From Melioribacteraceae bacterium (GTDB taxonomy: Bacteria > Bacteroidota > Ignavibacteria > Ignavibacteriales > Melioribacteraceae), in the NCBI GenBank assembly GCA_023230485.1, contig JALNXG010000007.1, forward strand, positions 813-64,812: 64,000 nucleotides of DNA, in the 5' to 3' direction. A program made the position numbers and the translations under genes. Shown here one piece after another: positions 17,265 to 42,601 of this stretch (positions are counted from its first letter, which is position 1; every line of letters begins with the position of its first letter). The notes below the pieces were generated by a model, which was not told the origin of the DNA, ran no database searches, and worked only from the letters and a program-made list of their open reading frames with translations.

Positions 17265-18247
17265 TATTCTTTTTTGTCAGTTGGTGGTTTTGCTATCGAA
17301 TTTCTCATATCCGTATCTGCTTGAACGTTGCGAAGATTATAATAATCCATTACACCAAGATTTCCGTTTCTGAATGCTTCAGCGATTGAGCGAGGTATTT
17401 CGGCTTCTGCTTCTACTACTTTTGCTTTCATACGTGAAACTTCTGCTGTCATTTCCTGTTCTAAAGCCACAGCCGCAGCTCTTCTTTCTTCTGCTTTTGC
17501 TCTTGCTACTTTCAAATCTGCTTCTGCTTGATCAGTCTGTAAAATAGCACCGATGTTTGTTCCTACATCTACGTCTGCAATATCAATCGATAGAATTTCA
17601 AATGCCGTTCCTGCATCTAACCCTTTTGCAAGTACAACTTTTGAGATGCTATCCGGATTTTCAAGTACTTCTTTATGTGATTTGCTTGAACCGATTGTAG
17701 AAACGATACCTTCACCGACTCTTGCTAAAATTGTAGCTTCAGTTGCACCACCGACTAATCTCTCTAAGTTAGCTCTAACTGTAATACGTGCTATTGCTTT
17801 TAATTGGATACCATCCTTTGCCACAGCAGCTACCATTGGTGTTTCAATAACCTTTGGAAGTACCGACATTTTAACTGCTTCGAGAACATCTCTACCTGCT
17901 AAATCGATTGCAGCAGCCTTTTCAAATCCTAAATCCAAATTTGCTTTATTTGCAGAAATTAATGCATTTATAACTTTTGTAGGGTTACCACCTGCAAGAT
18001 AATGAGCTTCTAATAATGAAAGATCAACTTCAATTCCTGCTTTTGTTGCTGTTATTAAATTCCTTACAATTACTTGTGGTGAAACTTTTCTAAGACGCAT
18101 ACCAACTAAATCGCGGAATATTTTTACTTTGACACCTGAAAAATATGCTGTTACAAATAATCCGATCGGTACGAAATATAGAAAGAATGATAGTACAACT
18201 ATTGTTGCAAATATGATTAATAAGGATAATCCGGTTTGAACTTCCAT
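17264..18247 (-). CDS. floA: Flotillin-like protein FloA (SPFH/UPF0365 family)
   Basis: 327 aa. Long near-identical stretches to what I recall of Bacillus FloA/YqfA ([53 protein letters not shown]). Confidence 0.9.
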
Positions 18248-18443
18248 TTATTGCTCCTTTTTTGACTTACTTTTTATTATATAAAGTTATTAATAAATAT
18301 GTCATAAAACAAGAATTATAAATTCGGGTTATATCTAAATTTTGCCTATTTTAGTACCTTGATTACAGAAATATGGTTATTTATATTTTGGAAACATTTT
18401 AGATGGATTTTATGTTAAATCCAAAAAACAAGAAGGTGAATTT

Positions 18444-20963
18444 ATGGATGGTAATTTTTCAGAACGTGTTCAAGAAGTAATTAGACTTAGCAGAGAAGAA
18501 GCTTTAAGAATGGGACACGATTATATTGGGACAGAACATCTTTTACTCGGAATTATTCGTGAAGGTCAAGGTGTAGCTGTTAAAATTATTAGAAATCTCG
18601 AAGTTGATTTGATAAAACTTAAAAAAGCAATTGAAGATACAGTCAGAACTGCTGGCGGCACTCTTACTATCGGAAATATTCCGCTTACTAAACAAGCTGA
18701 AAAAGTTCTAAAGATAACTCAGATTGAATCAAAAATTTATAAATCAGATCTTATAGGTACCGAACATATTCTTCTATCACTATTAAGAGACGAAGATAAT
18801 ATTGCTACTCAAATTCTACATCAGTTTAACCTGACTTATGATGCAGCACGTGCAGAATTAAATAATATTCTAAGTGCAAGAGCCGGTCTTGGTGATAAAG
18901 GGGCTCAACAGATGCAATTTGGTCAGGTTGGTAAAAAAATTGAGAAAACTAAAACTCCGGTGTTAGATAATTTTGGTAGAGACCTAACGAAATTAGCTAT
19001 TGAAGATAAACTTGATCCAGTGGTCGGCAGAGAGAAAGAGATCGAAAGAGTGGCTCAAGTTCTATCACGCCGGAAAAAGAATAATCCTGTTTTAATTGGT
19101 GAACCAGGCGTAGGTAAAACTGCTATTGCTGAAGGATTGGCTCTCAGAATTATTCAACGTAAAGTCCCGCGCATTCTTCAGGATAAAAGAGTTGTTACTC
19201 TAGACCTCGCAGGATTAGTTGCAGGTACTAAATATCGCGGTCAGTTTGAAGAGAGAATGAAAGCTCTTATGACTGAATTAGAAAAAGCAGATGATGTGAT
19301 TTTATTTATCGATGAGCTTCATACAATAGTAGGTGCAGGCGGAGCATCAGGTTCCTTAGATGCTTCTAATATGTTCAAACCGGCTCTTGCACGCGGCGAT
19401 ATACAGTGTATTGGTGCTACAACACTTGATGAATATCGTAAGTTTATTGAAACCGATGGAGCTTTGGATAGAAGATTTCAAAAAGTAATGATTGATCCAC
19501 CATCAATTGAAGAAACTATTCAGATTCTCAAAAACATCAAATTCAAATATGAAGAACATCATCACGTTAGATACACTGATGAAGCGATCGTAAATTCTGT
19601 AAAATTGAGTGTGAGATATATTACCGATCGGTACTTGCCCGATAAAGCTATTGATGTTATTGACGAAGCTGGTTCCAGAGTTCATATGGGTAACTTTACA
19701 GTTTCTGAAGAAATTCTAAAACTTGAAGAAGAAATCGAGGAAGTTAAACAACAGAAAGTAATGGTTGTAAAAAAACAAGATTATGAAGAAGCCGCTCGCC
19801 TTAGAGATAGAGAACGCACTCTTCAATCTGATCTTGAAATTGCTAAACGTGAATGGGATACTAAAACTAAAGATCTAATATTCGATGTTACTGAGGAAGA
19901 TATTGCAACTGTTGTGGCAATGATGACAGGTATTCCTGTTACTCGTGTCGTACAAGCTGAATCAGAAAAATTAATGAAAATGGAATCTGCTCTTAAAGAA
20001 AGAATTGTGGGACAAGATGATGCAGTTACAAAATTAAGTAAAGCAATTCGAAGAACTAGAGCCGGATTGAAAAGATCAAATAAACCAATTGGTACTTTTA
20101 TATTTTTAGGTCCGACAGGTGTTGGTAAGACAGAATTGACTAAAGAATTGGCAAGATATTTATTCGATTCTGAGGATGCATTAATTAGAATTGATATGAG
20201 TGAATATATGGAAAAATTTGCCGTATCAAGATTGGTAGGTGCCCCTCCCGGATATGTAGGATATGAAGAGGGTGGACAGCTCACAGAACGAGTACGCCGT
20301 AAACCATATTCGGTAGTTTTATTCGATGAAATCGAAAAAGCACATCCTGACGTGTTTAATATTTTGCTTCAAGTTCTGGATGATGGTACTCTTACAGATA
20401 GTCTTGGCAGGAAAGTAGATTTTAAGAATACAATTATTATTATGACTTCTAATGTCGGTACAAAAGATATTAGAATCGGCGGCGGATTTGGATTTGGTAA
20501 AGGAACTGATGCTGATGAATATTCACAGCTAAAAAATACAGTAGAAGATGCAATGAAACGTCTCTTCAATCCTGAATTTATTAATAGAATTGATGATACT
20601 ATTGTTTTCAGATCGTTGGATAAAGAAGATATAAAGAAAATTGTGTTTATTGAGATGAAAGATTTAATTAATAATCTCGCCGAAAATAAGATGACTATCG
20701 AATTAACCAAAGGAGCAATTGAATTTTTGGCTGATAAAGGTTTTGATCCTAAGTTTGGTGCTAGACCACTCAAGAGAGCAATCCAAAAATATATCGAAGA
20801 CCCATTAGCAGAAGAATTATTACTATCAAATTTTAAAGATGGTGAAAAGATAATAGTGAAGCATAAAAAGAAAACGGAAGAATTATACTTCATCTCCGGT
20901 AAAGCAATTGATACAGAAGAATCAGAAGAAAAAACTGAAGAAGAAACTAAAGAAAATAATTAG
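18444..20963 (+). CDS. clpC: ATP-dependent Clp protease ATP-binding subunit ClpC
   Basis: 839 aa. Two Clp_N repeats, two AAA modules ([10 protein letters not shown] and [10 protein letters not shown]), and a UVR-like linker ([13 protein letters not shown]). Confidence 0.92.
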
Positions 20964-20971
20964 GAATAAAG

Positions 20972-21550
20972 ATGATTTCTAAAGATGAAGTATTAAACAT
21001 TTTTTTGAATACAAATGCCCTTTTGACAGGGCATTTTTTATTAACTTCTGGAAGACATAGTGATAAATATTTCCAATGCGCTCTTGTACTTCAACATCCT
21101 GAGTATAATATTTTACTCGCAGAACAGATTGTCAATCAAATAAGTGAATTAGAAATTGATACAGTCATTTCTCCTGCAATTGGTGGTATATGTGTAGGAC
21201 AGGAAGTGGCACGCCAATTGAATAAAAAATTTATTTTCGCCGAACGTGAAAATGGAAAGATGTCTCTTAGACGTGGTTTCAAAATCGATGAGGGTGAAAA
21301 ACTTTTTGTGTGCGAAGATGTAGTTACTACCGGCGGATCTGTTTTTGAAGTTATGGAATTGATAAAAGAAAATAATGCTATCACTACCGGTGTGGGGATT
21401 ATAGTCGATAGAAGTAATAAAAAAGCTAATTTCGGTGTACCTCAATTTAGTACGCTCGAATTAGACGTTATTTCATATCCGCCAGAAGATTGTCCATTTT
21501 GTAAAGAAAATATTCCGTTTGTAAAACCCGGTTCCCGTAAATTAAAATAG
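20972..21550 (+). CDS. pyrE: Orotate phosphoribosyltransferase
   Basis: 192 aa with the PRPP-binding motif LFVCEDVVTTGGS. Confidence 0.88.
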   Translation: MISKDEVLNIFLNTNALLTGHFLLTSGRHSDKYFQCALVLQHPEYNILLAEQIVNQISELEIDTVISPAIGGICVGQEVARQLNKKFIFAERENGKMSLRRGFKIDEGEKLFVCEDVVTTGGSVFEVMELIKENNAITTGVGIIVDRSNKKANFGVPQFSTLELDVISYPPEDCPFCKENIPFVKPGSRKLK

Positions 21551-21558
21551 AGATAAAA

Positions 21559-22824
21559 ATGAAAATCTGGAAATTATTCTTTTTGTTCCCTTCGCTTTTA
21601 ATAGCTCAAATTCAATATGATGATTATTTCACTGAAAAAACTATGCGTTTTGATTTTACTCATTTCGGAGATAAATATTCCGAAGAGATCGGATTCGATA
21701 AAATAATTGAAGAAGGAGATTGGGCTGGTACTAGAACGAACCTTATCGATCCATTCGGCTATGGAAATTATAAATTTATATTGAAAGACACTGATTCAAA
21801 TAAGGAAATCTTTTCTATGGGGTTCTCAACTCTCTTTATGGAATGGCAGACTACCGAAGAAGCAAAAACTGTAAAAAGAACTTACGAAGGTTCTATTCGT
21901 TTCCCATTCCCTAAAGCAAATTCTATTTTAGAAATTTATAGAAGAGATAAAAGAGGAGATTTCGTAAAAAAAATAGAATATAGTATAGACCCACAAAGTT
22001 ATTTCATTCATCATGAAATGAAATATCAATGCCCTAATTTCAAAGTACACTATTCGGGGAATAGTTATGAAAAATTGGATATTGTTTTTGTACCCGAAGG
22101 ATATACTAAAGAAGAGATGGGCAAATTCAAAAAAGATTGCGAAAGATTAAGTAAGTCATTATTTAGTTATGAACCATTTTCCAATTTTCAAAACAATATA
22201 AATGTATGGGGAGTCGAAGCTCCATCAAATGATTCAGGCACAGATATTCCAGGCGATAATGTTTGGAAAAATACCATTATGGGTTCTAATTTTTACACAT
22301 TCGATAGTGAACGTTATTTGATGACGACAAATTATTTTGATGTAAGAGATATTGCTGCAAATGCTCCTTATGATCAAATCTATATAATTGTAAATACTTC
22401 TAAATATGGTGGCGGAGCAATTTATAATTACTATTCTCTTACAGGTGCTGACCATAAATTAGCCGGACAAGTATTCGTACATGAATTTGGGCATGGTTTA
22501 GCAGGTCTCGCTGACGAATATTCAGGGGATGATACTTACCAAGATTTTTACCCATTAGATGTCGAACCATGGGAGCCGAACGTAACGACATTAGTAAATT
22601 TTGATAATAAATGGAAATCGATGATTGATAAAGATACACCAATTCCTACTCCTACTACTGATGAATTCAAAAACAAAGTTGGTGTTTTCGAAGGTGCAGG
22701 ATATGTCGCAAAAGGTGTTTATAGACCCTCTGTAAATAGTCTTATGAATTCATTTTCAGTAAATGAATTTAATCCGGTTTGTAAAAAAGTATTGAGCGAT
22801 TTCATTAACTATTATTCCAAATAA
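21559..22824 (+). CDS. Secreted zinc metallopeptidase, IgA-peptidase M64 family
   Basis: 421 aa. Signal peptide (LFFLFPSLLIAQ) and zinc motif VHEFGHGLAGLADEY. Confidence 0.75.
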   Translation: MKIWKLFFLFPSLLIAQIQYDDYFTEKTMRFDFTHFGDKYSEEIGFDKIIEEGDWAGTRTNLIDPFGYGNYKFILKDTDSNKEIFSMGFSTLFMEWQTTEEAKTVKRTYEGSIRFPFPKANSILEIYRRDKRGDFVKKIEYSIDPQSYFIHHEMKYQCPNFKVHYSGNSYEKLDIVFVPEGYTKEEMGKFKKDCERLSKSLFSYEPFSNFQNNINVWGVEAPSNDSGTDIPGDNVWKNTIMGSNFYTFDSERYLMTTNYFDVRDIAANAPYDQIYIIVNTSKYGGGAIYNYYSLTGADHKLAGQVFVHEFGHGLAGLADEYSGDDTYQDFYPLDVEPWEPNVTTLVNFDNKWKSMIDKDTPIPTPTTDEFKNKVGVFEGAGYVAKGVYRPSVNSLMNSFSVNEFNPVCKKVLSDFINYYSK

Positions 22825-22827
22825 TCA

Positions 22828-24066
22828 ATGATACAGAAAAAATTATACCGTGCTTTAGAAAATATTGCTTCCAAACATTTTAAAACTGAAAAAGAATTAT
22901 TGACTGAAATTCTTGAAGAACTTATTAACGATCCGAGAACAGATATTCTTGGTGGAAGAGTGTGGCAATTAAATTCCGTTGATCGTTCATATAAGTTATA
23001 TTTTCAATGTGGAAAAGTTCAGAAAATTCCTAAAGAGTTTGAAGTAAAATTAGATGACTATCCAATATTTTCCCAAATAACAGAAGAAAGAACCGTTCTA
23101 GCTAGTGAAACAAACGAAACTCTTATTTCAAAAGGTATATTTAAGTATTCTGCTTCGGGAGTCGGAATTAAGGTTCGTGTAAATGGACATAAATATTATG
23201 AATATCTTATCGCACTAAATAGTAATGAAATCGGGAAAGATCTAAGATATACATTAAATATTGTAGCTACCGTATTGACTTCTAAATTGCACGAGAGAAA
23301 AATTGCTCAATCACAGCTGCATTTAATTGCTGATTTAGATAAAGCGAAAGAATTACAAAGAAGTATTCTACCTGAGCATGAATATCGATTTCATAATTAC
23401 GATATATTTGGCGTTACTATTCCGGCTGAAATAATTGGCGGGGATTTTTACGATTACTTAAAAATTGGAGAAGAGGAAGATCGTCTTGGTATAGTGGTCG
23501 GTGATGCTGCTTCAAAGGGGATTGCCGCTGCTGCTGAAGCTATGTACATTTCAGGTGCTGTCAGAATGGCTTCTACTTTCCAAATGAAAATATCTCCTAT
23601 GATGAATCGTTTGAATCAACTCATTAATAAAATATTCAGTGATGATAAATTTGCAACAATATTTTATGGTGAATTATCCAACGATAAAAAAGGACTTTTT
23701 CTTTATGCAAATGCAGGACATAATCCACCACTTTTTTATAGTAAATACAAGAATAAATTTTCATATCTTCAACCAACTGGTCCATTAATTGGTCCGGCTC
23801 CAAATTCTAAGTATGAAACTGATAGTATCAATTTTTATAACGGTGATATTCTTGTTATATATACTGATGGTGTTGTAGAATCTGCAAATCATAAATATGA
23901 GTTTTATGAAGAGAAACGTTTAGAAAAAATTATTAAAAAAAATGTGGATAAAACTCCAAAGGAAATTGTAGCATTAATTCTTGATGATGTTTTACGCTTT
24001 TCAACTTCTGAAAGCCAGTATGTCGATGATAAAACTATTGTGGTTATTAAAAGGAAAGATAGATGA
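22828..24066 (+). CDS. PP2C/SpoIIE-family serine phosphatase with an N-terminal sensory (GAF-like?) region
   Basis: 412 aa with PPM/SpoIIE motifs GGDFYDY, VVGDAASKGIAAA, ANAGHNPP and YTDGVVE. The stop overlaps the next ATG (ATGA). Confidence 0.8.
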   Translation: MIQKKLYRALENIASKHFKTEKELLTEILEELINDPRTDILGGRVWQLNSVDRSYKLYFQCGKVQKIPKEFEVKLDDYPIFSQITEERTVLASETNETLISKGIFKYSASGVGIKVRVNGHKYYEYLIALNSNEIGKDLRYTLNIVATVLTSKLHERKIAQSQLHLIADLDKAKELQRSILPEHEYRFHNYDIFGVTIPAEIIGGDFYDYLKIGEEEDRLGIVVGDAASKGIAAAAEAMYISGAVRMASTFQMKISPMMNRLNQLINKIFSDDKFATIFYGELSNDKKGLFLYANAGHNPPLFYSKYKNKFSYLQPTGPLIGPAPNSKYETDSINFYNGDILVIYTDGVVESANHKYEFYEEKRLEKIIKKNVDKTPKEIVALILDDVLRFSTSESQYVDDKTIVVIKRKDR

Positions 24067-25376
24067 GCTTTTCTGAAAAAATATTTAATGCCGGCGTTGT
24101 TGGTGCCGGAGGAGCTGGTTTTCCAACTCATATAAAAGCTAATTCAAAAGTGGAATATGTTTTGGTTAATGGTGCTGAATGCGAACCATTAATCCATAAA
24201 GATGTTGAACTGATGAAAAATTTCCCATCTCAAATACTTGAGGGTGTAAGTGAAATGATGAAGAATACCGATGCAAAAAAGACTTACTTCGGTATTAAAG
24301 CTAAGAATAGCATAGCAATTGAAGAGATTGAAAAACATAATTCAAATAATAGAATAGAAACTTGTTTACTTGGTGATTTTTATCCATCAGGTGATGAATA
24401 TGAATTGGTTTATGCGGCGACAAAAAGATTAATACCACCTCATGGACTACCTTTAGATGTCGGTTGTGTCGTAAATAATGTTGAGACATTTTTTAATATT
24501 TCTAATGCTCTTAAAGATATTCCTGTAACTGAAAAAATTGTTACTGTAACCGGATTAGTAAAAGAACCGAAAACATTTTTTGCTCCTATTGGTACTTCAT
24601 TTAAAGACTTAATTGAATTTGCCGGCGGTGCTATTGCAAATGATTACGCAATATTTGTTAGTGGCATTCTCATGGGTCGCTTAACATTCGATTTAACTGA
24701 AGTAGTAACAAAAACAATTGCCGGAATTATTTTACTTCCGAAAGATCATTATTTAGTTACACGAATGAATCGCCCATTAACAAGTATGAACCGAATAGGG
24801 AAATCAGCTTGCGATCAATGTAGTTATTGCACAGAATTTTGTCCTCGTTACTTACTTGGCTATGACGTTCAGCCGCATAAAGTAATGCGGTCTCTACAAT
24901 TCTCAACAACAGGCGAAGCAGTTTGGAATCAATATGCTGATCTCTGCTGCTCATGCGGATTATGCTCATTATATGCTTGTCCAGAAGACCTTTACCCACG
25001 TGAAGCATGCGATCAAGGTAAAGCGGAATTAAGAAAAAATAATCAGAAATATATCCAGCCTAAACCGGTTAAGGTTCATCCGATTAAAGAGGGAAGAAGA
25101 GTTCCACTTAAACAGTTAATGAAAAGGATGGATGTCTTGAAATACGAACAGAAGACTCCGTTTACCGAAGGGAAACCCGAGCCGAAAATTATAAAGATAT
25201 TTTTGAAACAACATGTAGGTGTACCTGCATCATTGAATGTATTGGTAGGGGATAAAGTTTCAAAAGGGGATTTGGTAGGAAAAATGGATAACGGCAAATT
25301 AGGTGCTAATATACATTCATCAATTGATGGTATTGTAACAAGTGCAAATGATAATTTTATAATAATTGAAAGATAG
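24063..25376 (+). CDS. PduS/RnfC-like flavin Fe-S oxidoreductase
   Basis: 437 aa. Contains the 51K-type motif GVVGAGGAGFPTHIK and Fe-S motifs CDQCSYCTEFCP and CCSCGLCSLYACP. A C-terminal barrel-sandwich-like segment (VGDKVSKGDLVGKM...IHSSIDGIV) follows. The adjacent gene is PduT-like. Confidence 0.75.
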   Translation: MSFSEKIFNAGVVGAGGAGFPTHIKANSKVEYVLVNGAECEPLIHKDVELMKNFPSQILEGVSEMMKNTDAKKTYFGIKAKNSIAIEEIEKHNSNNRIETCLLGDFYPSGDEYELVYAATKRLIPPHGLPLDVGCVVNNVETFFNISNALKDIPVTEKIVTVTGLVKEPKTFFAPIGTSFKDLIEFAGGAIANDYAIFVSGILMGRLTFDLTEVVTKTIAGIILLPKDHYLVTRMNRPLTSMNRIGKSACDQCSYCTEFCPRYLLGYDVQPHKVMRSLQFSTTGEAVWNQYADLCCSCGLCSLYACPEDLYPREACDQGKAELRKNNQKYIQPKPVKVHPIKEGRRVPLKQLMKRMDVLKYEQKTPFTEGKPEPKIIKIFLKQHVGVPASLNVLVGDKVSKGDLVGKMDNGKLGANIHSSIDGIVTSANDNFIIIER

Positions 25377-25385
25377 CAGGCAATT

Positions 25386-25937
25386 ATGGAAATGAATTCA
25401 CTCGGATTAATAGAACTAACAAGTATAGCTGCAGGAATGCAGGCAGCTGATATAATGCTTAAAACCTCACAAGTTGAATTAGTACTTTCTCGAACAATTT
25501 GCTCAGGTAAATATATGGTGCTGATCGGCGGAGATGTAGCAGAAGTGCAAACAGCCGTTGATGCGGCAGTAAATCAAATCGATTTTGCTGTTATTGATAC
25601 ATTCGTTATACCGAATGTACATCCCGATATTTTCCCTGCATTAGCTGGGCATTCAAAAATCGATAAATTAGAGGCACTCGGAATTATCGAATCATTTTCG
25701 GTAGCTTCTTTAATTGAGGGAGCTGATGCAGCAATAAAATCTTCTAATGTAAAAATTATTGAGATTCGACTTGCTATGGCGTTGGGTGGCAAGGCATTTT
25801 GTACTTTAACAGGTGAAGTCGCCGCTGTTACAAGTGCAGTAGAATCAGGCGCTCAATTGATTGCTTCTAAAGGTTTGCTGGTGAATAAAGTAGTCATCGC
25901 TCAACCCCGTCCCGAACTCTTAAGTGAAATGATTTAG
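25386..25937 (+). CDS. Tandem BMC-domain shell protein, PduT-like (BMC-T)
   Basis: 183 aa with two BMC domains (LGLIELTSIAAGMQAAD... and LGIIESFSVASLIEGAD...). TICSGK contains Cys39 (25500-25502), matching the PduT pore [4Fe-4S] ligand context TICPGK as I recall it. Confidence 0.85.
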   Translation: MEMNSLGLIELTSIAAGMQAADIMLKTSQVELVLSRTICSGKYMVLIGGDVAEVQTAVDAAVNQIDFAVIDTFVIPNVHPDIFPALAGHSKIDKLEALGIIESFSVASLIEGADAAIKSSNVKIIEIRLAMALGGKAFCTLTGEVAAVTSAVESGAQLIASKGLLVNKVVIAQPRPELLSEMI

Positions 25938-25952
25938 TAATATTATATTCTT

Positions 25953-26966
25953 ATGCCTATAAATAAAGTTGGAATCGATAGCTATTCGCTTCGAAGTTTG
26001 GAATGCGATCCATTTAAAATGTTAGAATGGGTTAAAGAGAATGGTGGATCAGGAATCCAATTTACTGAGTTACATTTACCTAAAAAGGTAAAACTTGATA
26101 ATCATTTCTTAGAAGAATTGAAATCTTATTCTCAAGAATTAGATCTTTATTTGGAATGGGGAAGTGGTTTTTCATTACCATTCGACTTTAATACTAATCA
26201 TAATAAGAAGATATATAAACATAATCTTAATATTGTAAAACAGGCTTCAATATTAGGTTCGAAAATCGTTAGATGTTCCTCAGGAGGATTATTTAGATTT
26301 AATAAAAAATCAATTCCTTTAGATTATGTTATTTCTGAATCTGTAAAATCTTTTAATCAACAACTACCATTTTTAAGAGAGTATAATGTAACTTTAGCAA
26401 TTGAAACTCATTTTGAGTTAACTACTTTTGAGTTATTAAAGATATTCCAGAATTGTGATTTAGAAACGGGAAAAGAACTTGGAATTTGTCTTGATTCTCT
26501 TAATCTTCTTACTTTAATGGAACATCCGATTTATGCTACAAATAGAATTCTTGATTGGGTAGTTGCTACTCATATTAAAAATGGATTCATTTATTTGCAT
26601 AAATTGGGTTTTAATGTCATACCTTCTGAATTAAATAAAGGTGTTCTAAATTTAGGAAAAATTATTTCTTTATTAGATAAGTCAAAGAATCTAATAAATC
26701 TTTCGATAGAAGGACACGGTGGCGATTTTATCATTCCAATATTTAGTAAAACTAATAGAATTAAACTTCCTGATCTTACAAAGCAGGAATTTATGGAAAT
26801 ATTAAAATTAACTTCTTATTGCATCCTCAATAGAAATAAACTTAATAAATATGAAAGATCAGAATCAGAATGGGGGATTAATTGCTTAATTGAAATGTCA
26901 TCGGATATAAGTTATCTTATTGGATTAGTAGAAAAACTAAAAACTAAAAAATGTCATATGGATTAA
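25953..26966 (+). CDS. Xylose-isomerase-like TIM-barrel protein (sugar phosphate isomerase/epimerase family)
   Basis: 337 aa. Has weak but typical AP_endonuc_2-like features (VRCSSGG, LAIETHFE). The assignment is tentative. Confidence 0.55.
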   Translation: MPINKVGIDSYSLRSLECDPFKMLEWVKENGGSGIQFTELHLPKKVKLDNHFLEELKSYSQELDLYLEWGSGFSLPFDFNTNHNKKIYKHNLNIVKQASILGSKIVRCSSGGLFRFNKKSIPLDYVISESVKSFNQQLPFLREYNVTLAIETHFELTTFELLKIFQNCDLETGKELGICLDSLNLLTLMEHPIYATNRILDWVVATHIKNGFIYLHKLGFNVIPSELNKGVLNLGKIISLLDKSKNLINLSIEGHGGDFIIPIFSKTNRIKLPDLTKQEFMEILKLTSYCILNRNKLNKYERSESEWGINCLIEMSSDISYLIGLVEKLKTKKCHMD

Positions 26967-26968
26967 TA

Positions 26969-29900
26969 TCAACTATCAATTTTATAAACATCTTCTAGGA
27001 TGATTGTCATTAAATCGTCATCACTAAGTGAAAATAATCTTGATACTCTTTCTTCTTGATTGCTGATTGCTTTATACAAAATATTTCGTGCTGTGCGGGC
27101 ATTTCCAAATGACTTATCTTTCTTACTACATATATCATTAAATATATCTAATAGAATCTGAAGTGCCCCTTCATCCAATTTATAACCATTCTTTTCGGCA
27201 AGGTCTGCAACTATGCTAAGTAACTGTCTAGGATTGTAATCTTCAAAAACAAAAATATTATTAAAGCGAGATTCTATTCCCGGATTTGATTCTAATAATA
27301 CTTTCATATCATCAGTATATCCGGCAATTATAACAGCTAATTGACCTCCGCAGTCTTCCATTCTCTTCAAAAGTGTATCAATTGCTTCTTGACCGAAATT
27401 ATCACCGCCTCGAAATAGTGTATAAGCTTCATCAATAAATAGGGTACCACCGAGAGCTTCTTTAATTACCTTATCAGTCTTCGTTGCAGTCTGTCCCTGA
27501 TATCCGGCAACGAGACTTGATCTATCAACTTCTACTAAATGACCTTTTTGAAGAAGTCCAAGCTCTTTAAATATTTTACTAATTAATCGCGCTATCGTTG
27601 TTTTACCTGATCCTGGATTACCCATAAATACACAGTTAAGATTTTTTTCAATTACCTGCAGACCTCTTTCTTTTCTTAATTGTGCTACTTTAAGTCCACT
27701 CATCAATTTGAAAACACCTTGCTTAACATTTTCTAAACCTGTTAACTGACTTAGTTCATCGATATATTTTTGAAGTTCAAGTGGATCGCCTTTTACTTCA
27801 TATTCCTTAGCTTGATTCTCTTTCTTAGAAATTACATCTTGAATATCTTCTAACTCAATCTTATTGATTATCTCATCAGTTCTTTCAGCTTGCACAATAT
27901 CTGCAACTCGTAAAAGTAATTTAGTCTTTGCAGTCTCAATAATATTTCTTGCTATACGTGCGTTACCGAATTTTTTATCTCGATTCCTGTAAATCTCATT
28001 AAAGTGTTTGCTTAATTCTTCTTTAGCTTTTTCTGAGATAGTCTTTTTATCTTTTTCTAATGAAAGAGTAATGATAGTTGATAATTCTTCAGGTGTATAA
28101 TCCTCGAACATAAATGTTTTATTAAAACGAGAAAGCATTCCCGGATTACTATTAATAAAAACATTCATTTCGTCTGTATAACCGGCAGCGATACAAATAA
28201 ATTTACCCCTATCATCTTCCATTCTTTTGAGCAGAATATCGATTGCTTCTTTACCGAAATCATTTTCCCCACCTTCTTTTTTGACTAAAGCATATGCTTC
28301 ATCAATAAAAAGAGTGCCCCCAAAAGATCTATCAATTATTGCACTTGTTTTTTCGGCTGTTTGTCCCACATAACCGGCGACTAAACCTTGCCGATCAGTT
28401 TCTATCAAATGACCCTTTGGTAAAATTCCTAAAGCATTATATATTTTGCTAAAAATGCGTGCAACAGTTGTCTTACCCGTACCCGGATTACCAAGAAATA
28501 GAATATGCGAAATGAATTTTTGAGTTACATCTTCACCTTCTTCAATGAAGTAACGAACTAACTTTACTAAATCATTTATCTCTTTTTTTACAGATGAAAG
28601 TCCAACTAATTTATTTAGTTCCCCTAACGATTCTTTAAGGGCTTCTTCATTGATAGGGAGATGAACTTCACGCGCTTTCTCGCGAGTTATAATCGATTTG
28701 ATATCGTCAATTGTAAATAAATTTATAGAATCAGGAGTTCTTTCAGAATCATCGAGATTTAAAATCCTTTTACTGATTTTTATTTTAGCTTCTTCAAATA
28801 TTTTCCTTACTAATCGAGCATTACCAAATGATTTATCACGTGAACGATATAGATTAATAAATTCTTTTTTTAATAATTCTTTTGCTTCTTCATTAATCTT
28901 ATAATCTTCTTTTTCAATAAGATTATTAAAAATAATTAATAGTTCTTCTGGCGTATAATCTTCAAAAATAAAGGTATGAGTGAAACGTGATTTTAGTCCC
29001 GGATTTGAATTAAGAAATGTTTCCATATCATCTGGATAACCGGCGGCTACTACTGTAAACTCACCTTTTTTATCTTCCATTCTTTTTAGAATAATGTCAA
29101 TCGCTTCTTGACCGAAATCTTGACCGCTCCCTTTTTTTATAAGGGTGTAAGCTTCATCAATAAATAAAACACCGCCCATAGCTTCTGTAATTGCTTTATC
29201 AGTTTTTTGAGCAGTTTCGCCGATATATTGTCCCACTAAAGCTGCACGATCTACTTCTACTACATGCCCTTTTTCAAGAAAACCGAGTGCTCTTAGAATC
29301 TCTCCGATTAATCGTGCAATGGTTGTCTTACCTGTTCCCGGATTACCAATAAATACAGTATTAACAGCGATTTTGTCTTCTGTTTTTAATCCATGTAGTT
29401 TTCGCTGTTTCTGATAATCTAAAAATGTAATAAAATCCTTTATTGAATTTTTTATACTTGCTAATCCGGTATATGAATTGAGTTCTTCTAATAATTCATC
29501 AAGCGTTCTTAATGGGGCAGGGTTTGAGTCTTTTGATTCATTTTTTAGCTCTTCTTTATCTTCAATATCTTTATCCGCTGTCAAGTGTTCATCTTCTTCG
29601 ATAAGGTGATCGCTAATAATGAAATTTCTTTCACAGACCTTGAAATCATTTAAGTAAATTTCTACTCTTGCTTGACCCTTTTTCCATTCGTGTGTTTTAT
29701 CGCTTCCACACGATTGTGCAAAAATGATCGATTCCCATTCTTTCTTAACATTTAATCGAAAATTATTTCTTAATATTTCAAAATCATTCAAGTACCATAC
29801 TGCATAACAATTATATAATAGATCTTTCTTCTTATATGCAGGATTAGTAAGAATGATTTCAGACCCAATTCTATTCGATAATTCATCGAATTGCGAATAA

Positions 29901-30916
29901 TATTTTCGCTCTCCATTATCCTTATCTTTTATTGCATCAAACAATTTAAGAGAAACTACCTCGGCGTATTCATTTGGGTAAATGATAGTTTCTGATTTTA
30001 ATTTTATCTCATCTTTTGGTAGTTCTCTTTTCCCTGATTTTTTAATTCTTTTTTCATCAGTAGAAGAAGAAAAAGTATTTTCAGTAGCCGATTCGCTATT
30101 CTTTGTGCTTTGTTTTTTTATAAGATTATAGATATTAACGAACTCTTTAGTAGCACCTAACTCATCTTTAAGCAATTCTGCTTTCTTAAGAGCGGGCTTT
30201 ATTTGAAATAAATAAAACATCGATTCTAGTTCTTTAACGTGCAATGCTGCTTTTAATTCAGAGGGGAGTTTCACCTTTTGTAATAGTTGTGATATATATA
30301 GTGAATACCAATACTCCTTTTGCTTAATTGCTTCATTAAGTGAAGTGACAATTTCTTTAATTTCAGGTAGGATTAATTTGTTCTTTTTGCCAATAATACT
30401 AATCGCATTTTCAAGAAATGATTTGGTAATATTTAATTTCTCATTCTCGCCATCTTCGAATATTACTGCTAATTCTAATACATTTAATGCTTCTTCAAAC
30501 TTACTCAGACCTGCTAACGCTTTCACTTTAGAGATATAAGTATCTGCTAAATATTTTTTTTCTTCTTCGATTGTTTTATCGATATCGGTAATAGCACCTT
30601 CATAAATGCTCATTCTATTGAGTATGAATGCTCTATAATAACGAGCTTTACGAGTATCGCCTTTAAGCTCTAAAGCAAGATTGGCAAATTCCATTGCCTT
30701 TGCAGGATATCCATTCTCTAATAAAGCAAGCGCATAACAGATTGCAGCATCCGAATCGTCAGGCATCGCATTTATTACTTTTTCAGCATTTGTTAATGCT
30801 AGTCGATATCTTCCATTCCAGAGATGTTCGTATGCTTCTTGTAATAATATATTTATGTTTTCGTTCATCAAAAAGTATTTTTTAGTACCGAATAGTAAGA
30901 AATCAAAAAATATCAA
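26969..30916 (-). CDS. TPR protein with three tandem CbbX/SpoVK-type AAA+ ATPase modules
   Basis: 1315 aa on the ORF track; the ATG at 30868 (MNENINILL) is the more likely start. Modules have Walker A GNPGTGKTT (K530), GNPGTGKTT (K815) and GNPGSGKTT (K1105). Each is followed by LFIDEAY (Walker B) and preceded by an L-x-x-L-x-GL-x-x-VK lead-in. The N-terminal ~260 aa are TPR-like. Residues ~305-440 are an unassigned beta-rich region. Confidence 0.85.
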   Translation of the reverse strand: MIFFDFLLFGTKKYFLMNENINILLQEAYEHLWNGRYRLALTNAEKVINAMPDDSDAAICYALALLENGYPAKAMEFANLALELKGDTRKARYYRAFILNRMSIYEGAITDIDKTIEEEKKYLADTYISKVKALAGLSKFEEALNVLELAVIFEDGENEKLNITKSFLENAISIIGKKNKLILPEIKEIVTSLNEAIKQKEYWYSLYISQLLQKVKLPSELKAALHVKELESMFYLFQIKPALKKAELLKDELGATKEFVNIYNLIKKQSTKNSESATENTFSSSTDEKRIKKSGKRELPKDEIKLKSETIIYPNEYAEVVSLKLFDAIKDKDNGERKYYSQFDELSNRIGSEIILTNPAYKKKDLLYNCYAVWYLNDFEILRNNFRLNVKKEWESIIFAQSCGSDKTHEWKKGQARVEIYLNDFKVCERNFIISDHLIEEDEHLTADKDIEDKEELKNESKDSNPAPLRTLDELLEELNSYTGLASIKNSIKDFITFLDYQKQRKLHGLKTEDKIAVNTVFIGNPGTGKTTIARLIGEILRALGFLEKGHVVEVDRAALVGQYIGETAQKTDKAITEAMGGVLFIDEAYTLIKKGSGQDFGQEAIDIILKRMEDKKGEFTVVAAGYPDDMETFLNSNPGLKSRFTHTFIFEDYTPEELLIIFNNLIEKEDYKINEEAKELLKKEFINLYRSRDKSFGNARLVRKIFEEAKIKISKRILNLDDSERTPDSINLFTIDDIKSIITREKAREVHLPINEEALKESLGELNKLVGLSSVKKEINDLVKLVRYFIEEGEDVTQKFISHILFLGNPGTGKTTVARIFSKIYNALGILPKGHLIETDRQGLVAGYVGQTAEKTSAIIDRSFGGTLFIDEAYALVKKEGGENDFGKEAIDILLKRMEDDRGKFICIAAGYTDEMNVFINSNPGMLSRFNKTFMFEDYTPEELSTIITLSLEKDKKTISEKAKEELSKHFNEIYRNRDKKFGNARIARNIIETAKTKLLLRVADIVQAERTDEIINKIELEDIQDVISKKENQAKEYEVKGDPLELQKYIDELSQLTGLENVKQGVFKLMSGLKVAQLRKERGLQVIEKNLNCVFMGNPGSGKTTIARLISKIFKELGLLQKGHLVEVDRSSLVAGYQGQTATKTDKVIKEALGGTLFIDEAYTLFRGGDNFGQEAIDTLLKRMEDCGGQLAVIIAGYTDDMKVLLESNPGIESRFNNIFVFEDYNPRQLLSIVADLAEKNGYKLDEGALQILLDIFNDICSKKDKSFGNARTARNILYKAISNQEERVSRLFSLSDDDLMTIILEDVYKIDS

Positions 30917-31009
30917 AAGATTTGCTAATAATCTAAACTTATTTTAATGAGATAATTTTAACTTTTTCATTTATATTTCGTCTAATAAGATAACGAAATA
31001 GAGGAAGAT

Positions 31010-31657
31010 ATGAGAACACGAATTTTACTATTGTCGATAATAATGGCGTTTTCTTTATTTGGCTGCCGAATGTGGGGTGTCAGAGGTAATGGAAATGTCA
31101 ATGAAGAAGTTAGAAATGTTTCTAATTTTAAAAAGATCTATGTCGGCGGTGCATTTTCTGTTAAAATACGAATTGCAGAAAAATACAGCTTAAAGATTTC
31201 TGCCGAAGAAAATCTTTTGGGATTAATTCGCACAAGAGTTCGCGGTGATATATTAGATATCGATACTAAAAAAACTCTTTCTCCACGTAAAGAAGTTAAT
31301 ATTTACATCACTACACCCGATTTAAATTATATCAATTGTTCAGGAGCTAACAATGTTTATGTCGAAGGAATAAATTCAGAGTATTTTGAAGTTAATCTTA
31401 GCGGTGCAGGGAATGTTGATCTTACAGGTAAAACAAAAAAGTTTAAAGCCGTTATTTCTGGTGCAGGAAGCTTAGATGCGAAACAACTAAAAGCAGAAGA
31501 AACTAGAATAAAAGTTAGTGGTGCAGCAAGTGCAGATGTCTTTGCATCCAAAAACATTGATGCAGAAGTTTCAGGTGTCGGTTCAATTGATTATTTTGGA
31601 AAACCGGAAAAGATTAGGACAAATGTTTCCGGAGTGGGTTCAATTAATCAAAAATAA
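31010..31657 (+). CDS. Lipoprotein with a DUF2807-like (GIN-domain, beta-helix repeat) fold
   Basis: 215 aa. Lipobox LFGC, followed by repeated SGAGN(V/L)D / SGAAS / SGVGSID strands. Confidence 0.6.
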   Translation: MRTRILLLSIIMAFSLFGCRMWGVRGNGNVNEEVRNVSNFKKIYVGGAFSVKIRIAEKYSLKISAEENLLGLIRTRVRGDILDIDTKKTLSPRKEVNIYITTPDLNYINCSGANNVYVEGINSEYFEVNLSGAGNVDLTGKTKKFKAVISGAGSLDAKQLKAEETRIKVSGAASADVFASKNIDAEVSGVGSIDYFGKPEKIRTNVSGVGSINQK

Positions 31658-34486: not shown

Positions 34487-34978
34487 ATGCACAATCATAT
34501 TTTTGAAAATTACGCTCCCGGAGAGAGAAGCAGTTTAATCGCTCTTTTGCAGGACGTCCAAGAAATTTATGGCTATTTACCTGAAGAAGCATTAAGAGAC
34601 ATTTCAGATTTTATAAAAGTACCTTTAAGCGGTATTTACGGAGTAGCAACTTTCTATAATCAATTCCGCTTGAAACCTTTAGGAAAAAATGTTATTAGAG
34701 TTTGCAGAGGAACTGCATGCCATGTAAAAAATTCTGCGAATATTCTTATGGCTTTAGAGTTGGAATTAGGTGTTAAAGCCGGAGATACTACCAGAGATAA
34801 ACTTTTTACTTTAGAAACAGTGGCATGTATCGGAGCTTGTAGTATTGCACCCGTAGTTAATATCAATCAAGAATATTTCGGAAGAGTTACGGTTAAAGAA
34901 ATTCCTAAAATTCTTAAAAAATATCGTCAAGAAGAAGCATTGAAATCGAAGTCAGAACAATCCGTGAGTGTAGAATGA
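34487..34978 (+). CDS. hydC: NuoE-like [2Fe-2S] subunit of HydABC-type hydrogenase (set 1)
   Basis: 163 aa with the thioredoxin-like [2Fe-2S] motifs CRGTACH and CIGACSIAP. Confidence 0.88.
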   Translation: MHNHIFENYAPGERSSLIALLQDVQEIYGYLPEEALRDISDFIKVPLSGIYGVATFYNQFRLKPLGKNVIRVCRGTACHVKNSANILMALELELGVKAGDTTRDKLFTLETVACIGACSIAPVVNINQEYFGRVTVKEIPKILKKYRQEEALKSKSEQSVSVE

Positions 34979-36960: not shown

Positions 36961-36982
36961 TTTGAAACCGGAGATAGAAAAA

Positions 36983-41119: not shown

Positions 41120-42601
41120 TTGAATGAAACAAAAGGAAAAATTTTAGTTGTCGATGATGAAAAAGGATTAAGGATTGGAACGCAAAGATTATTAGAAGAT
41201 GAGAATTTTACAGTAGATACTGCGGAAAATGGTGAACAGGGAATTAGTCTTGGTGTTGCTTCCGATTACGACTTAGCAATAATCGACCTTAAAATGCCGG
41301 ATGTAGATGGACTTGAAGTGCTTAAGCAAATCAAGTCCGTACATCCAAACACAATCTGTTTTATAGCTACTGCTTATGCAAGCTATGAAACGGCAATAGA
41401 ATCCACTCGCCTTGGCGCATATGGCTATATACCAAAACCTTTCACTCCCGATGAATTAATTTATCAAGTTGAACAAGGATTTAGACAACGGCAATTAGTT
41501 GTTGAATCTGAACTTCTTAAAAAAGAACGCGATGAAAATCTTATCGAAATTGCTTCAGAAAAATCACGACTAAATACAATAATTAAAGCAATTAGCGATG
41601 GCGTCCTAGTAATTAATAGAATAGGTGAGTTAGTTTATTTTAATACAGCCGCCTTAAAATATTTTGATCTCGATTCACTTTCAATAGGAGATTCTGCTCT
41701 TATACATTTACCCGCTCCTATTGTAGAGATTATTAAAAAGATTTATAGCCCCGATCAAGCACTTCAAAAAACATATAGCATACAATTAGAATTAAAATCC
41801 AATAATGAATTATTTGTTGAATCTACATGCACTCCAATACTTCAAAATGACAAATCGATTGCAGGAGTTGTAGTAGTAATCAAAAATATCACTGAATTTA
41901 AAAAGATCGAGTTAATTAAATCTCAATTCGTTTCTATGGTAGCTCACGAACTAAAAACCCCTATGGCTGCAGTTCAAGGATTCTTGAATATTATCCTAGA
42001 TGATTCTATTAGCATTCCTTATGATACTCAACGCGATTATTTAGTAAGGTCAGTTATTCGCCTAAAAAGTTTGACTGATCTAGTAAATGACCTTTTAGAT
42101 ATCTCAAGAATGGAATTAAAGACAAAGCAGAGAGAAATAACGGAAATTAAGCTCGATGAGATAGTCCAATCAGTTTCACAAATGCTAGAATTAGAACTCA
42201 AGAAAAAAGGTGTTACATTAATTACTCATTATGAAGAACCAATTCCAACTATTAAAGCGGATGCTAATGAAATCAACAGAATATTTACCAATCTCATTAG
42301 CAATGCAATAAAGTATAATAAAGACAAAGGGAAAATTGATATCAGTATTTCCCATTCCGGCAGCTACGCAGTGATACAGATTAGCGATAGCGGAATAGGG
42401 ATGAAAACGGAAGAAAAAAATAGATTATTCCAGGAATTTTACAGAGCAAAAAATGAAAAGACCCGCGGCATCAGCGGTACCGGTCTCGGTCTTTCTATCG
42501 TAAAAAAAATAGTTGAATCTTATTATGGAAAAATAGAAGTCGAATCTGAATATGGTTCGGGTACGACATTTATAATCCATTTTCCAATAAATACTAACTA
42601 A
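41120..42601 (+). CDS. Hybrid sensor kinase: receiver-PAS-HisKA-HATPase_c
   Basis: 493 aa, TTG start. Receiver (VVDDE...IIDLKMPDVDG...PKP), a PAS-like middle region, H-box VAHELKTPMAAV and GTGLGLSIVKK. Confidence 0.85.
   Translation: MNETKGKILVVDDEKGLRIGTQRLLEDENFTVDTAENGEQGISLGVASDYDLAIIDLKMPDVDGLEVLKQIKSVHPNTICFIATAYASYETAIESTRLGAYGYIPKPFTPDELIYQVEQGFRQRQLVVESELLKKERDENLIEIASEKSRLNTIIKAISDGVLVINRIGELVYFNTAALKYFDLDSLSIGDSALIHLPAPIVEIIKKIYSPDQALQKTYSIQLELKSNNELFVESTCTPILQNDKSIAGVVVVIKNITEFKKIELIKSQFVSMVAHELKTPMAAVQGFLNIILDDSISIPYDTQRDYLVRSVIRLKSLTDLVNDLLDISRMELKTKQREITEIKLDEIVQSVSQMLELELKKKGVTLITHYEEPIPTIKADANEINRIFTNLISNAIKYNKDKGKIDISISHSGSYAVIQISDSGIGMKTEEKNRLFQEFYRAKNEKTRGISGTGLGLSIVKKIVESYYGKIEVESEYGSGTTFIIHFPINTN

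What the first reader, a model, noticed from the sequence alone, without database searches (positions are those of the whole stretch)
22828..26966. Orphan PduS/PduT (Fe-S shell protein plus flavin Fe-S reductase) module without other microcompartment genes, coupled to a PP2C phosphatase
Seen:
- The 183-aa tandem-BMC protein has the PduT-like TICSGK Cys (Cys39, 25500-25502).
- It is preceded by a PduS/RnfC-like protein with GAGGAGFPT and two 4Fe-4S motifs.
- The start of that protein overlaps the stop of a SpoIIE/PP2C phosphatase (ATGA at 24063-24066).
- A xylose-isomerase-like TIM-barrel gene follows 15 nt downstream.
- I found no BMC-H (about 90-aa PduA/EutM type) or BMC-P (EutN/PduN type) gene and no signature aldehyde dehydrogenase anywhere in the 64 kb.

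Established:
- PduT trimers carry a [4Fe-4S] cluster at the pore.
- PduS is the partner reductase inside Pdu microcompartments.
- A closed shell needs BMC-H and BMC-P proteins.

Inference, two alternatives:
- This is a satellite electron-conduit locus serving a microcompartment encoded elsewhere.
- It is a shell-independent use of a BMC-T/reductase pair, possibly under phosphatase control.
Basis: partly seen in the sequence, partly recalled or inferred. Interest (0 to 1): 0.65.

Follow-up and report, generated by a model that had tools for sequence, protein, structure and literature searches.

The report
Catalogued satellite PduS/PduT electron-conduit gene pair
This is the already-catalogued two-gene module (an NADH-oxidising flavin/iron-sulfur enzyme plus an iron-sulfur shell tile) that lets bacterial microcompartments pass electrons out through their shell; in this bacterial family it lies far from the other shell genes, so it is ordinary, apart from a phosphatase gene fused to its front that nobody has described.

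Summary
Bases 22828-25937 encode a SpoIIE/PP2C phosphatase, a PduS-type flavin/2x[4Fe-4S] protein and a 183-aa tandem-BMC PduT-type shell protein with the pore cysteine. No other shell gene lies in the 64 kb.

It is not an unexplained orphan. The window comes from a Melioribacteraceae (Ignavibacteriota) genome. The orthologous BMC-T of Melioribacter roseus (MROS_2475) and a protein 84% identical to ours (BMS3Abin04_02073) are listed in the 2021 BMC catalogue as "FRAG1 (sat)", a type whose shell genes are scattered and which often carries a PduS/T pair.

A 2024 PNAS paper showed experimentally that such pairs (renamed MNdh/BMC-T^SE) carry electrons NADH -> FMN -> three [4Fe-4S] -> outside, regenerating NAD+ in the lumen. 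It also noted that they often sit in satellite loci.

Rosettibacter firmus carries our triad on one contig. On another it has a complete aldehyde-dehydrogenase BMC locus with no BMC-T, PduS or alcohol dehydrogenase.

The TIM-barrel gene is a strain-specific low-GC insertion.

The phosphatase is joined to PduS (-38 to +6 nt) in all 82 family loci where both genes were called full-length. It is absent from five more distant PduS/T pairs. That clade-specific coupling is the only unreported element.

The parts
22828..24066 (+). SpoIIE/PP2C (PPM, RsbU/SpoIIE-type) serine phosphatase, 412 aa. Its N-terminal ~200 aa form an uncharacterised, poorly conserved domain. It is a clade-specific upstream partner of the pair.
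   Evidence: Pfam PF07228, E=1.8e-43. A profile of 27 orthologs hits Rv1364c, SiaA, RssB and SpoIIE in the PDB. Metal-binding Asp motifs are conserved across 75 orthologs. It is adjacent to PduS in 82/82 family loci where both genes were called and absent from 5 outgroup loci.
24063..24066 (+). ATGA stop/start overlap between PP2C and PduS
   Evidence: Sequence read. The junction gap is -38 to +6 nt in every family locus.
24063..25376 (+). PduS / MNdh (metabolosome NADH dehydrogenase), 437 aa. Domain order is Complex1_51K-SLBB-2x[4Fe-4S]-RnfC_N, a circular permutation of RnfC.
   Evidence: Pfam and NCBIfam. Residues 7-323 align to RnfC 127-431 (7ZC6, E=1.8e-48). All of the nearest 150 representative clusters except three truncated sequences are proteins of about 415-465 aa aligned over almost the whole query.
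24102..24128 (+). GAGGAGFPT NADH/FMN-site motif (residues 14-22)
   Evidence: Translation. Six of the nine positions are invariant and the other three conserved in at least 60-90% of 78 orthologs.
24810..24845 (+). First [4Fe-4S] motif, C250-x2-C253-x2-C256-x3-C260-P
   Evidence: Translation. All four cysteines are invariant in 78 orthologs. Fer4_17, E=8e-16.
24945..24983 (+). Second [4Fe-4S] motif, C295-x2-C298-x2-C301-x4-C306-P
   Evidence: Translation. The motif is conserved in 78 orthologs: C295, C298 and C301 invariant, and C306 and P307 in an invariant run.
25386..25937 (+). PduT-type tandem-BMC shell protein (BMC-T^S / BMC-T^SE), 183 aa, of the 'wisteria' clade in the 2021 catalogue
   Evidence: Two PF00936 domains. 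PduT structures match at E~1e-45. The AlphaFold2 model has TM 0.89-0.92 to PduT/3NWG. It is 84% identical to BMS3Abin04_02073 (P0082), which the catalogue lists as FRAG1 (sat), wisteria.
25500..25502 (+). Cys39 codon (TGC), the predicted pore [4Fe-4S] ligand, in the motif I-C-S-G-K
   Evidence: I38-C39-S40-G41-K42 are invariant in 81 distinct orthologs and kept in five outgroup proteins of 60-78% identity.

Best explanation
The PduS-like and BMC-T genes are a satellite copy of the MNdh/BMC-T^SE cofactor-recycling module of bacterial microcompartments.

Proposed mechanism:
- The BMC-T trimer is a tile of a shell whose BMC-H and BMC-P genes lie elsewhere in the genome.
- Its three Cys39 residues hold a [4Fe-4S] cluster in the central pore.
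- PduS/MNdh docks on the lumenal face and oxidises the NADH made by the encapsulated aldehyde dehydrogenase.
- It passes the electrons FMN -> two [4Fe-4S] -> pore cluster -> a cytosolic acceptor. This regenerates NAD+ without an alcohol dehydrogenase.

In this family the plausible client is one or both of two systems. One is the scattered, shell-only 'FRAG1' set. The other is the MIC4/PVM-like aldolase / AldDH / PTAC / acetate-kinase metabolosome, which has no alcohol dehydrogenase, BMC-T or PduS of its own.

The upstream PP2C is co-transcribed and probably translationally coupled. Its role is unknown; I treat it as a family-specific regulatory add-on.

What is shown and what is inferred:
- Shown here: gene identities, motifs, fold, orthology to catalogued FRAG1 satellites, and a full BMC locus in the same genome in a relative.
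- Shown by others on a homolog: the electron path.
- Inferred: that it operates the same way here, and which compartment it serves.
For: Identity of the two proteins:
- Domain architecture and motifs of both match the family.

Placement in the published catalogue:
- The window is Melioribacteraceae; BMC-T homologs are 83-100% identical across the family.
- The catalogue lists MROS_2475 and BMS3Abin04_02073 (P0082, 84% identical to ours) as FRAG1 satellite T_pdut. [quoted passage not shown]
- M. roseus has 5 BMC-H, 1 BMC-T and 7 BMC-P in five loci.

Same-genome evidence in relatives:
- R. firmus assembly GCA_036860695.1 carries PP2C-PduS-BMC-T on contig 1.
- Its contig 2 carries PTAC, BMC-P, 2 BMC-H, AldDH, BMC-H, 3 BMC-P, class II aldolase and acetate kinase, with no BMC-T, PduS or AlcDH.
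- The same locus organisation surrounds an AldDH that NCBI names as from Melioribacter sp. Ez-97. That strain has the triad on contig NZ_JBPSEG010000006.1.

The pair behaves as a self-contained unit:
- It sits alone in unrelated housekeeping neighbourhoods in 80 species and in five more distant lineages.

Published mechanism:
- It counts 361 BMCs that have the pair but no AlcDH.
- It reports frequent satellite location of the pair.
Against: - The source genome outside the 64-kb window could not be searched, so shell genes elsewhere are inferred from relatives, not seen.
- FRAG1 is described as 'shell protein only', with no identified enzymes. PMC11626177 says MNdh occurs only in AldDH-containing types. 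Which compartment the pair serves is therefore unresolved.
- None of the four megabase-scale BMC-T-bearing contigs matches a contig length among the top 120 AldDH hits. This is weak evidence that some family members may keep the pair without a MIC4 locus.
- The pore motif is C-S-G-K, not the published CP(G/S)K.
- The NCBIfam PduT equivalog score is 124 bits, below the 250-bit cut-off.
- There is no biochemical evidence for this ortholog.
Confidence: 0.8

Rival explanations
1. Shell-independent use. The BMC-T trimer and PduS form a free cytosolic (or sheet-bound) NADH:acceptor oxidoreductase that does not depend on a closed compartment. In Melioribacteraceae it is switched by the PP2C.
For: - The pair is always isolated from shell genes: within +-10 kb in 80 species and +-8 kb in five outgroups.
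- BMC-T is extremely conserved: 99% aa identity where the DNA is 84% identical.
- FRAG1 has no known cargo enzymes.
- Four megabase-scale BMC-T-bearing contigs do not appear among the top AldDH hits.
Against: - Every genome of this lineage examined in the catalogues has BMC-H and BMC-P genes.
- R. firmus has a full shell locus that specifically lacks a BMC-T, PduS and AlcDH.
- The fold is a standard shell tile.
- The literature reports the pair only together with BMC loci.
Confidence: 0.08
2. Classical PduS role. The flavoprotein is a cobalamin reductase that reactivates a B12-dependent enzyme inside a compartment, as first proposed for Salmonella.
For: Homology to Salmonella PduS, the characterised corrin reductase (literature cited).
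Against: - No B12-dependent signature enzyme is present in the window, in the family's MIC4 loci, or in the FRAG1 description.
- No cobalamin riboswitch or any other Rfam family was found in the window.
- PMC11626177 argues that this role cannot apply to non-PDU/EUT types.
Confidence: 0.03
3. The PP2C is a functional third component. It would sense a signal through its N-terminal domain and control the conduit, either by dephosphorylating PduS, the BMC-T or a shell protein, or through a partner-switching factor that controls compartment expression. This can be true together with the main explanation.
For: - The stop/start junction is -38 to +6 nt in 82/82 family loci where both genes were called.
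- Over the same loci the M64->PP2C gap ranges up to 3.7 kb and the PduS->BMC-T gap up to 579 nt, with selfish small ORFs inserted there.
- The triad stays together where upstream genes are displaced or missing (L045, L059, L080, L089).
- Catalytic motifs are conserved.
Against: - It is absent from all five more distant pairs examined (PduS 56-64% identical).
- The whole ClpC-PRTase-M64-PP2C-PduS-BMC-T run is tightly packed on one strand, so unrelated genes are also close neighbours.
- No STAS or anti-sigma partner was found among the roughly 40 window ORFs scanned against Pfam.
- The catalogue supplements held as text and the main text of PMC11626177 never mention a phosphatase, and PMC11626177 states that no specific protein co-occurs with the pair.
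Confidence: 0.3

Closest known systems
MNdh/BMC-T^SE (PduS/PduT) cofactor-recycling module, PNAS 2024 (PMC11626177)
   Same: - Same four-domain PduS architecture, with the RnfC_N domain at the C terminus.
- An adjacent tandem-BMC protein with a pore cysteine.
- Frequent satellite location.
- Occurrence with metabolosomes that lack an alcohol dehydrogenase.
   Different: - The pore motif is CSGK rather than CP(G/S)K.
- This ortholog has not been characterised biochemically.
- In this family the pair has a translationally coupled PP2C, whereas that paper reports no specific co-occurring protein.
FRAG1 satellite locus of Melioribacter roseus (MROS_2475) and other Ignavibacteria, BMC catalogue 2021 (PMC8217296)
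   Same: - An orthologous BMC-T of 181-183 aa in the 'wisteria' clade.
- A PduS/T pair far from the BMC-P triplet and the two BMC-H genes.
- The same bacterial family.
   Different: - A different species, with about 84% BMC-T identity to Rosettibacter primus (labelled 'Melioribacter sp.').
- This strain has a 1-kb TIM-barrel insertion after the BMC-T.
- The catalogue text does not mention the PP2C.
Salmonella/Citrobacter PduS-PduT of the pdu operon (PDB 3N79, 3PAC)
   Same: - The fold matches (TM about 0.9).
- Cys38 aligns with Cys39.
- PduS is the partner protein.
   Different: - Only 38-40% identity.
- The enteric genes lie inside a 20-gene operon with a B12-dependent diol dehydratase, and a cobalamin-reductase role was proposed there.
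- The NCBIfam equivalog cut-off is not reached (124 vs 250 bits).
RnfC subunit of the Rnf complex (PDB 7ZC6)
   Same: FMN/NADH domain, SLBB domain and two [4Fe-4S] clusters; E=1.8e-48.
   Different: - The domain order is circularly permuted.
- No Rnf membrane subunits lie next to it.
- The TIGR01945 score of 241.5 bits is just under its 245.95 cut-off.
RsbU/SpoIIE/SiaA/RssB-type PPM phosphatases (for the upstream gene)
   Same: PF07228 catalytic domain with conserved metal-binding aspartates, and an N-terminal input domain.
   Different: - The N-terminal domain matches no Pfam family or PDB sequence.
- No partner-switching substrate gene was found nearby.
- Linkage to a BMC module has not been described.

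Membership tests
PduT-type BMC-T^S / BMC-T^SE | Single chain of about 180-190 aa with two tandem PF00936 domains | tested here: met
   Two BMC stretches, E=2e-44; 183 aa.
PduT-type BMC-T^S / BMC-T^SE | Full-length sequence and fold similarity to solved PduT structures | tested here: met
   3PAC/3N79 at E~1e-45 over residues 5-182. The AlphaFold2 model (pLDDT 88) has TM 0.89-0.92 to 3PAC, 3N79 and 3NWG.
PduT-type BMC-T^SE | Pore cysteine in the CP(G/S)K motif (C38 of Salmonella PduT) | tested here: met
   Cys39 aligns with the PduT cysteine. The motif is the variant C-S-G-K, invariant in 81 orthologs and kept in 5 outgroups.
PduT-type BMC-T^SE | Trimer that binds one [4Fe-4S] cluster at the pore | not testable with these tools
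   Needs protein chemistry and EPR.
NCBIfam TIGR02526 eut_PduT equivalog | Score at or above the curated cut-off (250.3 bits) | tested here: not met
   123.9 bits. The protein belongs to the wider PduT-like clade and is not an equivalog of the enteric protein.
PduS / MNdh | Domain order pfam01512 - pfam10531 - 2x[4Fe-4S] - pfam13375 at the C terminus (permuted relative to RnfC) | tested here: met
   Pfam positions 8-147, 159-195, 249-310 and 371-428. RnfC residues 127-431 align to query residues 7-323.
PduS / MNdh | Gene adjacent to a cysteine-bearing PduT homolog (strict co-occurrence) | tested here: met
   A 9-nt gap in the window. The pair is adjacent in every locus with enough DNA (82 called full-length, one more frameshifted) and in all 5 outgroup loci.
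PduS / MNdh | NADH oxidation with electron transfer to the BMC-T cluster | not testable with these tools
   Shown only for the C. botulinum homolog.
FRAG1 BMC type (satellite component) | BMC-T falls in the catalogue's 'wisteria' T_pdut clade, labelled FRAG1 (sat) | tested here: met
   84% identity to BMS3Abin04_02073 (P0082), which sits in that clade together with MROS_2475.
FRAG1 BMC type (satellite component) | Located away from all other shell genes | tested here: met
   No BMC-H or BMC-P in the 64 kb, nor within +-10 kb in 80 species.
FRAG1 BMC type (satellite component) | [quoted passage not shown] | not testable with these tools
   The source genome is not available. Literature counts for M. 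roseus are 7 BMC-P and 5 BMC-H. R. firmus has 4 BMC-P and 3 BMC-H in its MIC4 locus.
RsbU/SpoIIE-type PPM phosphatase | PF07228 domain with conserved metal-binding aspartates | tested here: met
   E=1.8e-43. D206, D209, D226, D347, D400 and D401 are invariant in 27 orthologs.
RsbU/SpoIIE-type PPM phosphatase | A partner-switching substrate (STAS protein or anti-sigma kinase) encoded nearby | tested here: not met
   None among the roughly 40 window ORFs scanned against Pfam. Not all small ORFs were scanned.

The most novel reading that the evidence does not exclude
In Melioribacteraceae the electron-conduit module has acquired a dedicated sensor phosphatase. A PP2C with an unclassified N-terminal input domain is translationally coupled to MNdh. 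It would gate electron export, or compartment assembly, by dephosphorylating MNdh, the BMC-T or another shell or regulatory protein. That would be the first case of phospho-regulation of a microcompartment's redox link to the cytosol.
Probability: 0.15. Interest if true: 0.55.

Novelty: already known. Interest (0 to 1): 0.22.

Why it matters
The locus adds no new kind of system. It is an ortholog of a catalogued FRAG1 satellite, and the mechanism of the module was published in 2024.

Two points still have value:
- The locus illustrates that shell genes seen alone in a window should be checked against the fragmented-locus catalogue before being called orphan.
- FRAG1 compartments still have no known function or cargo. 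The invariant PP2C-MNdh coupling across some 80 Melioribacteraceae species is an undescribed and testable lead on how these compartments are regulated, and cultured isolates exist (M. roseus, Rosettibacter, Stygiobacter).

Tried and rejected
- **TIM barrel as part of the module: rejected.** It occurs only in the window and has 27% GC against 33% for the window. It is absent in L002/L012, with an 87-nt remnant in L067. Other genes fill the same slot in relatives.
- **Convergent TPR + 3xAAA (CbbX/SpoVK-type) protein as a partner: rejected.** It is conserved in the family but separated by variable insertions, and it is absent beside the outgroup pairs.
- **M64 peptidase, PRTase and ClpC as partners: rejected.** They are displaced or missing in several species while the triad persists.
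- **RnfC identity for the flavoprotein: rejected.** The domains are permuted, there are no Rnf neighbours, and the score is below cut-off.
- **PP2C N-terminal domain: no result.** There was no Pfam hit at E<=10 and no PDB sequence hit outside the catalytic domain. The single-sequence AlphaFold2 model was useless, with pLDDT 30.
- **Promoter/terminator scan: nothing above chance.**
- **Rfam: no hit in the window.**
- **Exact-sequence look-up of the window's BMC-T: not on record.**
- **Same-contig check by contig length:** There were no meaningful matches.
- **Scan limit:** Outgroups had to be reached through 50%-identity PduS representatives instead.

Full report
**What is there.** Six genes run head to tail on the + strand: ClpC (18444-20963), a phosphoribosyltransferase, an M64 peptidase, then the three genes of the finding.
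- The SpoIIE/PP2C phosphatase is at 22828-24066.
- The PduS-like protein is at 24063-25376.
- The tandem-BMC protein is at 25386-25937.
- A xylose-isomerase-like TIM-barrel gene follows at 25953-26966.

- The ATGA overlap is at 24063-24066.
- GAGGAGFPT and the two Cys-rich cluster motifs are present.
- The Cys39 codon TGC is at 25500-25502.

The BMC protein matches PduT crystal structures over its full length, with E about 1e-45. Its 'RTICSGKY' aligns on PduT 'KTICPGKF'. An AlphaFold2 model (pLDDT 88) superposes on PduT and 3NWG at TM 0.89-0.92.

The flavoprotein has the PduS domain order, with the RnfC_N domain at the C terminus. Residues 7-323 align to RnfC residues 127-431.

No other BMC domain, BMC-P, aldehyde dehydrogenase, PTAC or aldolase lies in the 64 kb.
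- phmmer on all stop-to-stop ORFs found none.
- tblastn with real Melioribacteraceae shell and core proteins found none.

The rest of the window is housekeeping (fab genes, gcvP, rnc, purEK) plus two [FeFe]-hydrogenase clusters.

**Where it comes from, and whether it is known.** BMC-T homologs of 83-100% identity all come from Melioribacteraceae (Ignavibacteriota): Melioribacter, Rosettibacter, Stygiobacter and many MAGs.

Axen et al. 2014 report that M. roseus has five BMC loci, four of them satellite or satellite-like. Together they hold 5 BMC-H, 1 BMC-T and 7 BMC-P.

The 2021 catalogue defines FRAG types as shell genes scattered over up to six places. [quoted passage not shown] Its BMC-T tree lists MROS_2475 (181 aa) as T_pdut, FRAG1 (sat), clade 'wisteria'. 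The same clade holds BMS3Abin04_02073, which is my hit P0082 at 84% identity. The locus is therefore an ortholog of a catalogued satellite.

[quoted passage not shown] For a purified complex it showed electron flow from NADH via FMN and three [4Fe-4S] clusters to an external acceptor, which regenerates NAD+ in the lumen.

The paper also reports these points:
- 361 BMCs have the pair but no alcohol dehydrogenase.
- The pair is often in satellite loci (PVM, 18 of 20).
- PduS is circularly permuted relative to RnfC.
- No specific co-occurring protein was found.

**Same-genome evidence.** I used the M. roseus BMC aldehyde dehydrogenase sequence from Axen's supplement as a query. This reached the main BMC locus of Rosettibacter firmus.
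- On contig 2 of GCA_036860695.1 lie PTAC, BMC-P, BMC-H x2, AldDH, BMC-H, BMC-P x3, class II aldolase and acetate kinase. LutC/LutB-like genes, a LacI regulator and an FGGY kinase follow.
- That locus has no BMC-T, no PduS and no alcohol dehydrogenase.
- Contig 1 of the same assembly carries M64-PP2C-PduS-BMC-T.

The same MIC4-type organisation surrounds an AldDH that NCBI names as from Melioribacter sp. Ez-97. That strain has the triad on another contig. A lactaldehyde-type metabolosome without an NAD+-recycling dehydrogenase is the client the MNdh model predicts.

The catalogue, however, assigns the pair to the shell-only FRAG1 set. I could not decide between the two.

**What belongs to the module.** A scan of one genome per species found relatives in 390 species. 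The best 80 (79-100% BMC-T identity) are all Melioribacteraceae-like. I annotated them with tblastn and measured the junctions.

*PP2C-PduS-BMC-T.* The three genes are adjacent in every locus with enough upstream DNA.
- In 82 loci both PP2C and PduS were called full-length.
- One more locus, L091, has all genes split by probable long-read indels.

*Junction gaps.*
- PP2C to PduS is always -38 to +6 nt.
- M64 to PP2C ranges up to 3.7 kb, and M64 is missing in some species.
- PduS to BMC-T ranges up to 579 nt. In several species that gap holds an inserted GxxExxY-type or 23S-IVP-type small ORF.

*Downstream of the BMC-T.* The content is different in almost every lineage.
- The window's TIM-barrel gene is a 1-kb, 27%-GC insertion.
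- It is absent from the closest species, and one species keeps an 87-nt remnant.

*Conservation.*
- BMC-T is under very strong constraint: 99% aa identity where the DNA is 84% identical.
- I38-C39-S40-G41-K42 are invariant, and the PduS cofactor motifs are invariant or nearly so.

**Is the phosphatase a general partner?** I reached more distant pairs in three steps: 50%-identity PduS representatives, a profile search built from them, and context look-ups.

I examined five loci, with PduS 56-64% and BMC-T 60-78% identical to the window. One of them shares the window's fab gene order.
- Each shows PduS followed by BMC-T alone, in five unrelated neighbourhoods.
- None has a PP2C or another shell gene within 8 kb.
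- All keep SR[TS]ICSGKYM.

The universal unit is therefore the pair. The PP2C is an addition fixed in Melioribacteraceae. Its catalytic aspartates are conserved, and its closest solved relatives are RsbU-like Rv1364c, SiaA, RssB and SpoIIE. Its N-terminal ~200 residues are poorly conserved and match nothing, and structure prediction failed. No STAS or anti-sigma partner was found among the ORFs scanned.

**Verdict.** The satellite interpretation is supported, and it is already published both as a catalogue entry and as a mechanism. 'Orphan' holds only at window scale. The TIM-barrel link is rejected. The PP2C link is real but family-specific and of unknown meaning.

The main gap is that the source genome itself could not be searched for shell genes. 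Interest is low. The residual novelty is the invariant PP2C-MNdh coupling.

Noticed in passing
window 34487-38713 and 43000-46584: Two HydABC-type gene sets lie about 9-20 kb downstream of the module. Each has a NuoE-like 2Fe-2S protein, a NuoF-like flavoprotein and an [FeFe]-hydrogenase large subunit, which suggests electron-bifurcating hydrogenases.
   Followed up: partly
window 38710-40686 and 41120-42601: An [FeFe]-hydrogenase-like domain is fused to HisKA+HATPase, giving a sensory hydrogenase-histidine kinase. A REC-PAS-HisK hybrid kinase follows, and both sit between the two hydrogenase clusters.
   Followed up: no
window 25950-26955: The TIM-barrel (AP_endonuc_2) gene sits in a 1-kb insertion with 27% GC. 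It is absent in L002/L012, and L067 keeps an 87-nt remnant. In relatives the same slot holds NspV plus a 594-aa protein, or a cupin, an SDR and an ABC transporter. The slot is an insertion hotspot.
   Followed up: yes
window 26969-30916 (- strand): A 1315-aa protein has N-terminal TPR repeats and three AAA+AAA_lid_6 (CbbX/SpoVK-type) modules. It is a conserved convergent neighbour across the family but is absent beside more distant PduS/T pairs.
   Followed up: partly
L017, L022, L035, L043, L048, L052 (between PduS and BMC-T); L059: Some species carry an inserted ORF of about 140 aa with the GxxExxY motif ('GPGLLESVYEN...'). One species (L059) has a 23S-rRNA-IVS-protein-like ORF. In each case the ORF lies in the PduS-to-BMC-T spacer; none lies in the PP2C-to-PduS junction.
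   Followed up: partly
window 18001-31500 vs L012/L002: The region is only about 83-84% identical in DNA to the nearest species representative, yet the BMC-T protein is 99% identical. PduS is 90% and PP2C 92% identical. The shell tile is under unusually strong purifying selection.
   Followed up: partly
L010 14542-20352; L097 13660-19425: The family's MIC4-type BMC loci continue into LutC/LutB-like LUD-domain Fe-S proteins, a LacI regulator and an FGGY sugar kinase. This fits a fucose/rhamnose -> lactaldehyde -> lactate route.
   Followed up: no
L010 2668-3081: A 137-aa HATPase_c_2 (RsbW-like anti-sigma serine kinase) gene lies about 5 kb upstream of the R. firmus MIC4 locus. It could be a partner-switching component or a coincidence.
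   Followed up: no
L091 6149-9930: M64, PP2C and PduS are each split over several reading frames in this long-read MAG. The cause is probably indel errors rather than pseudogenes.
   Followed up: partly
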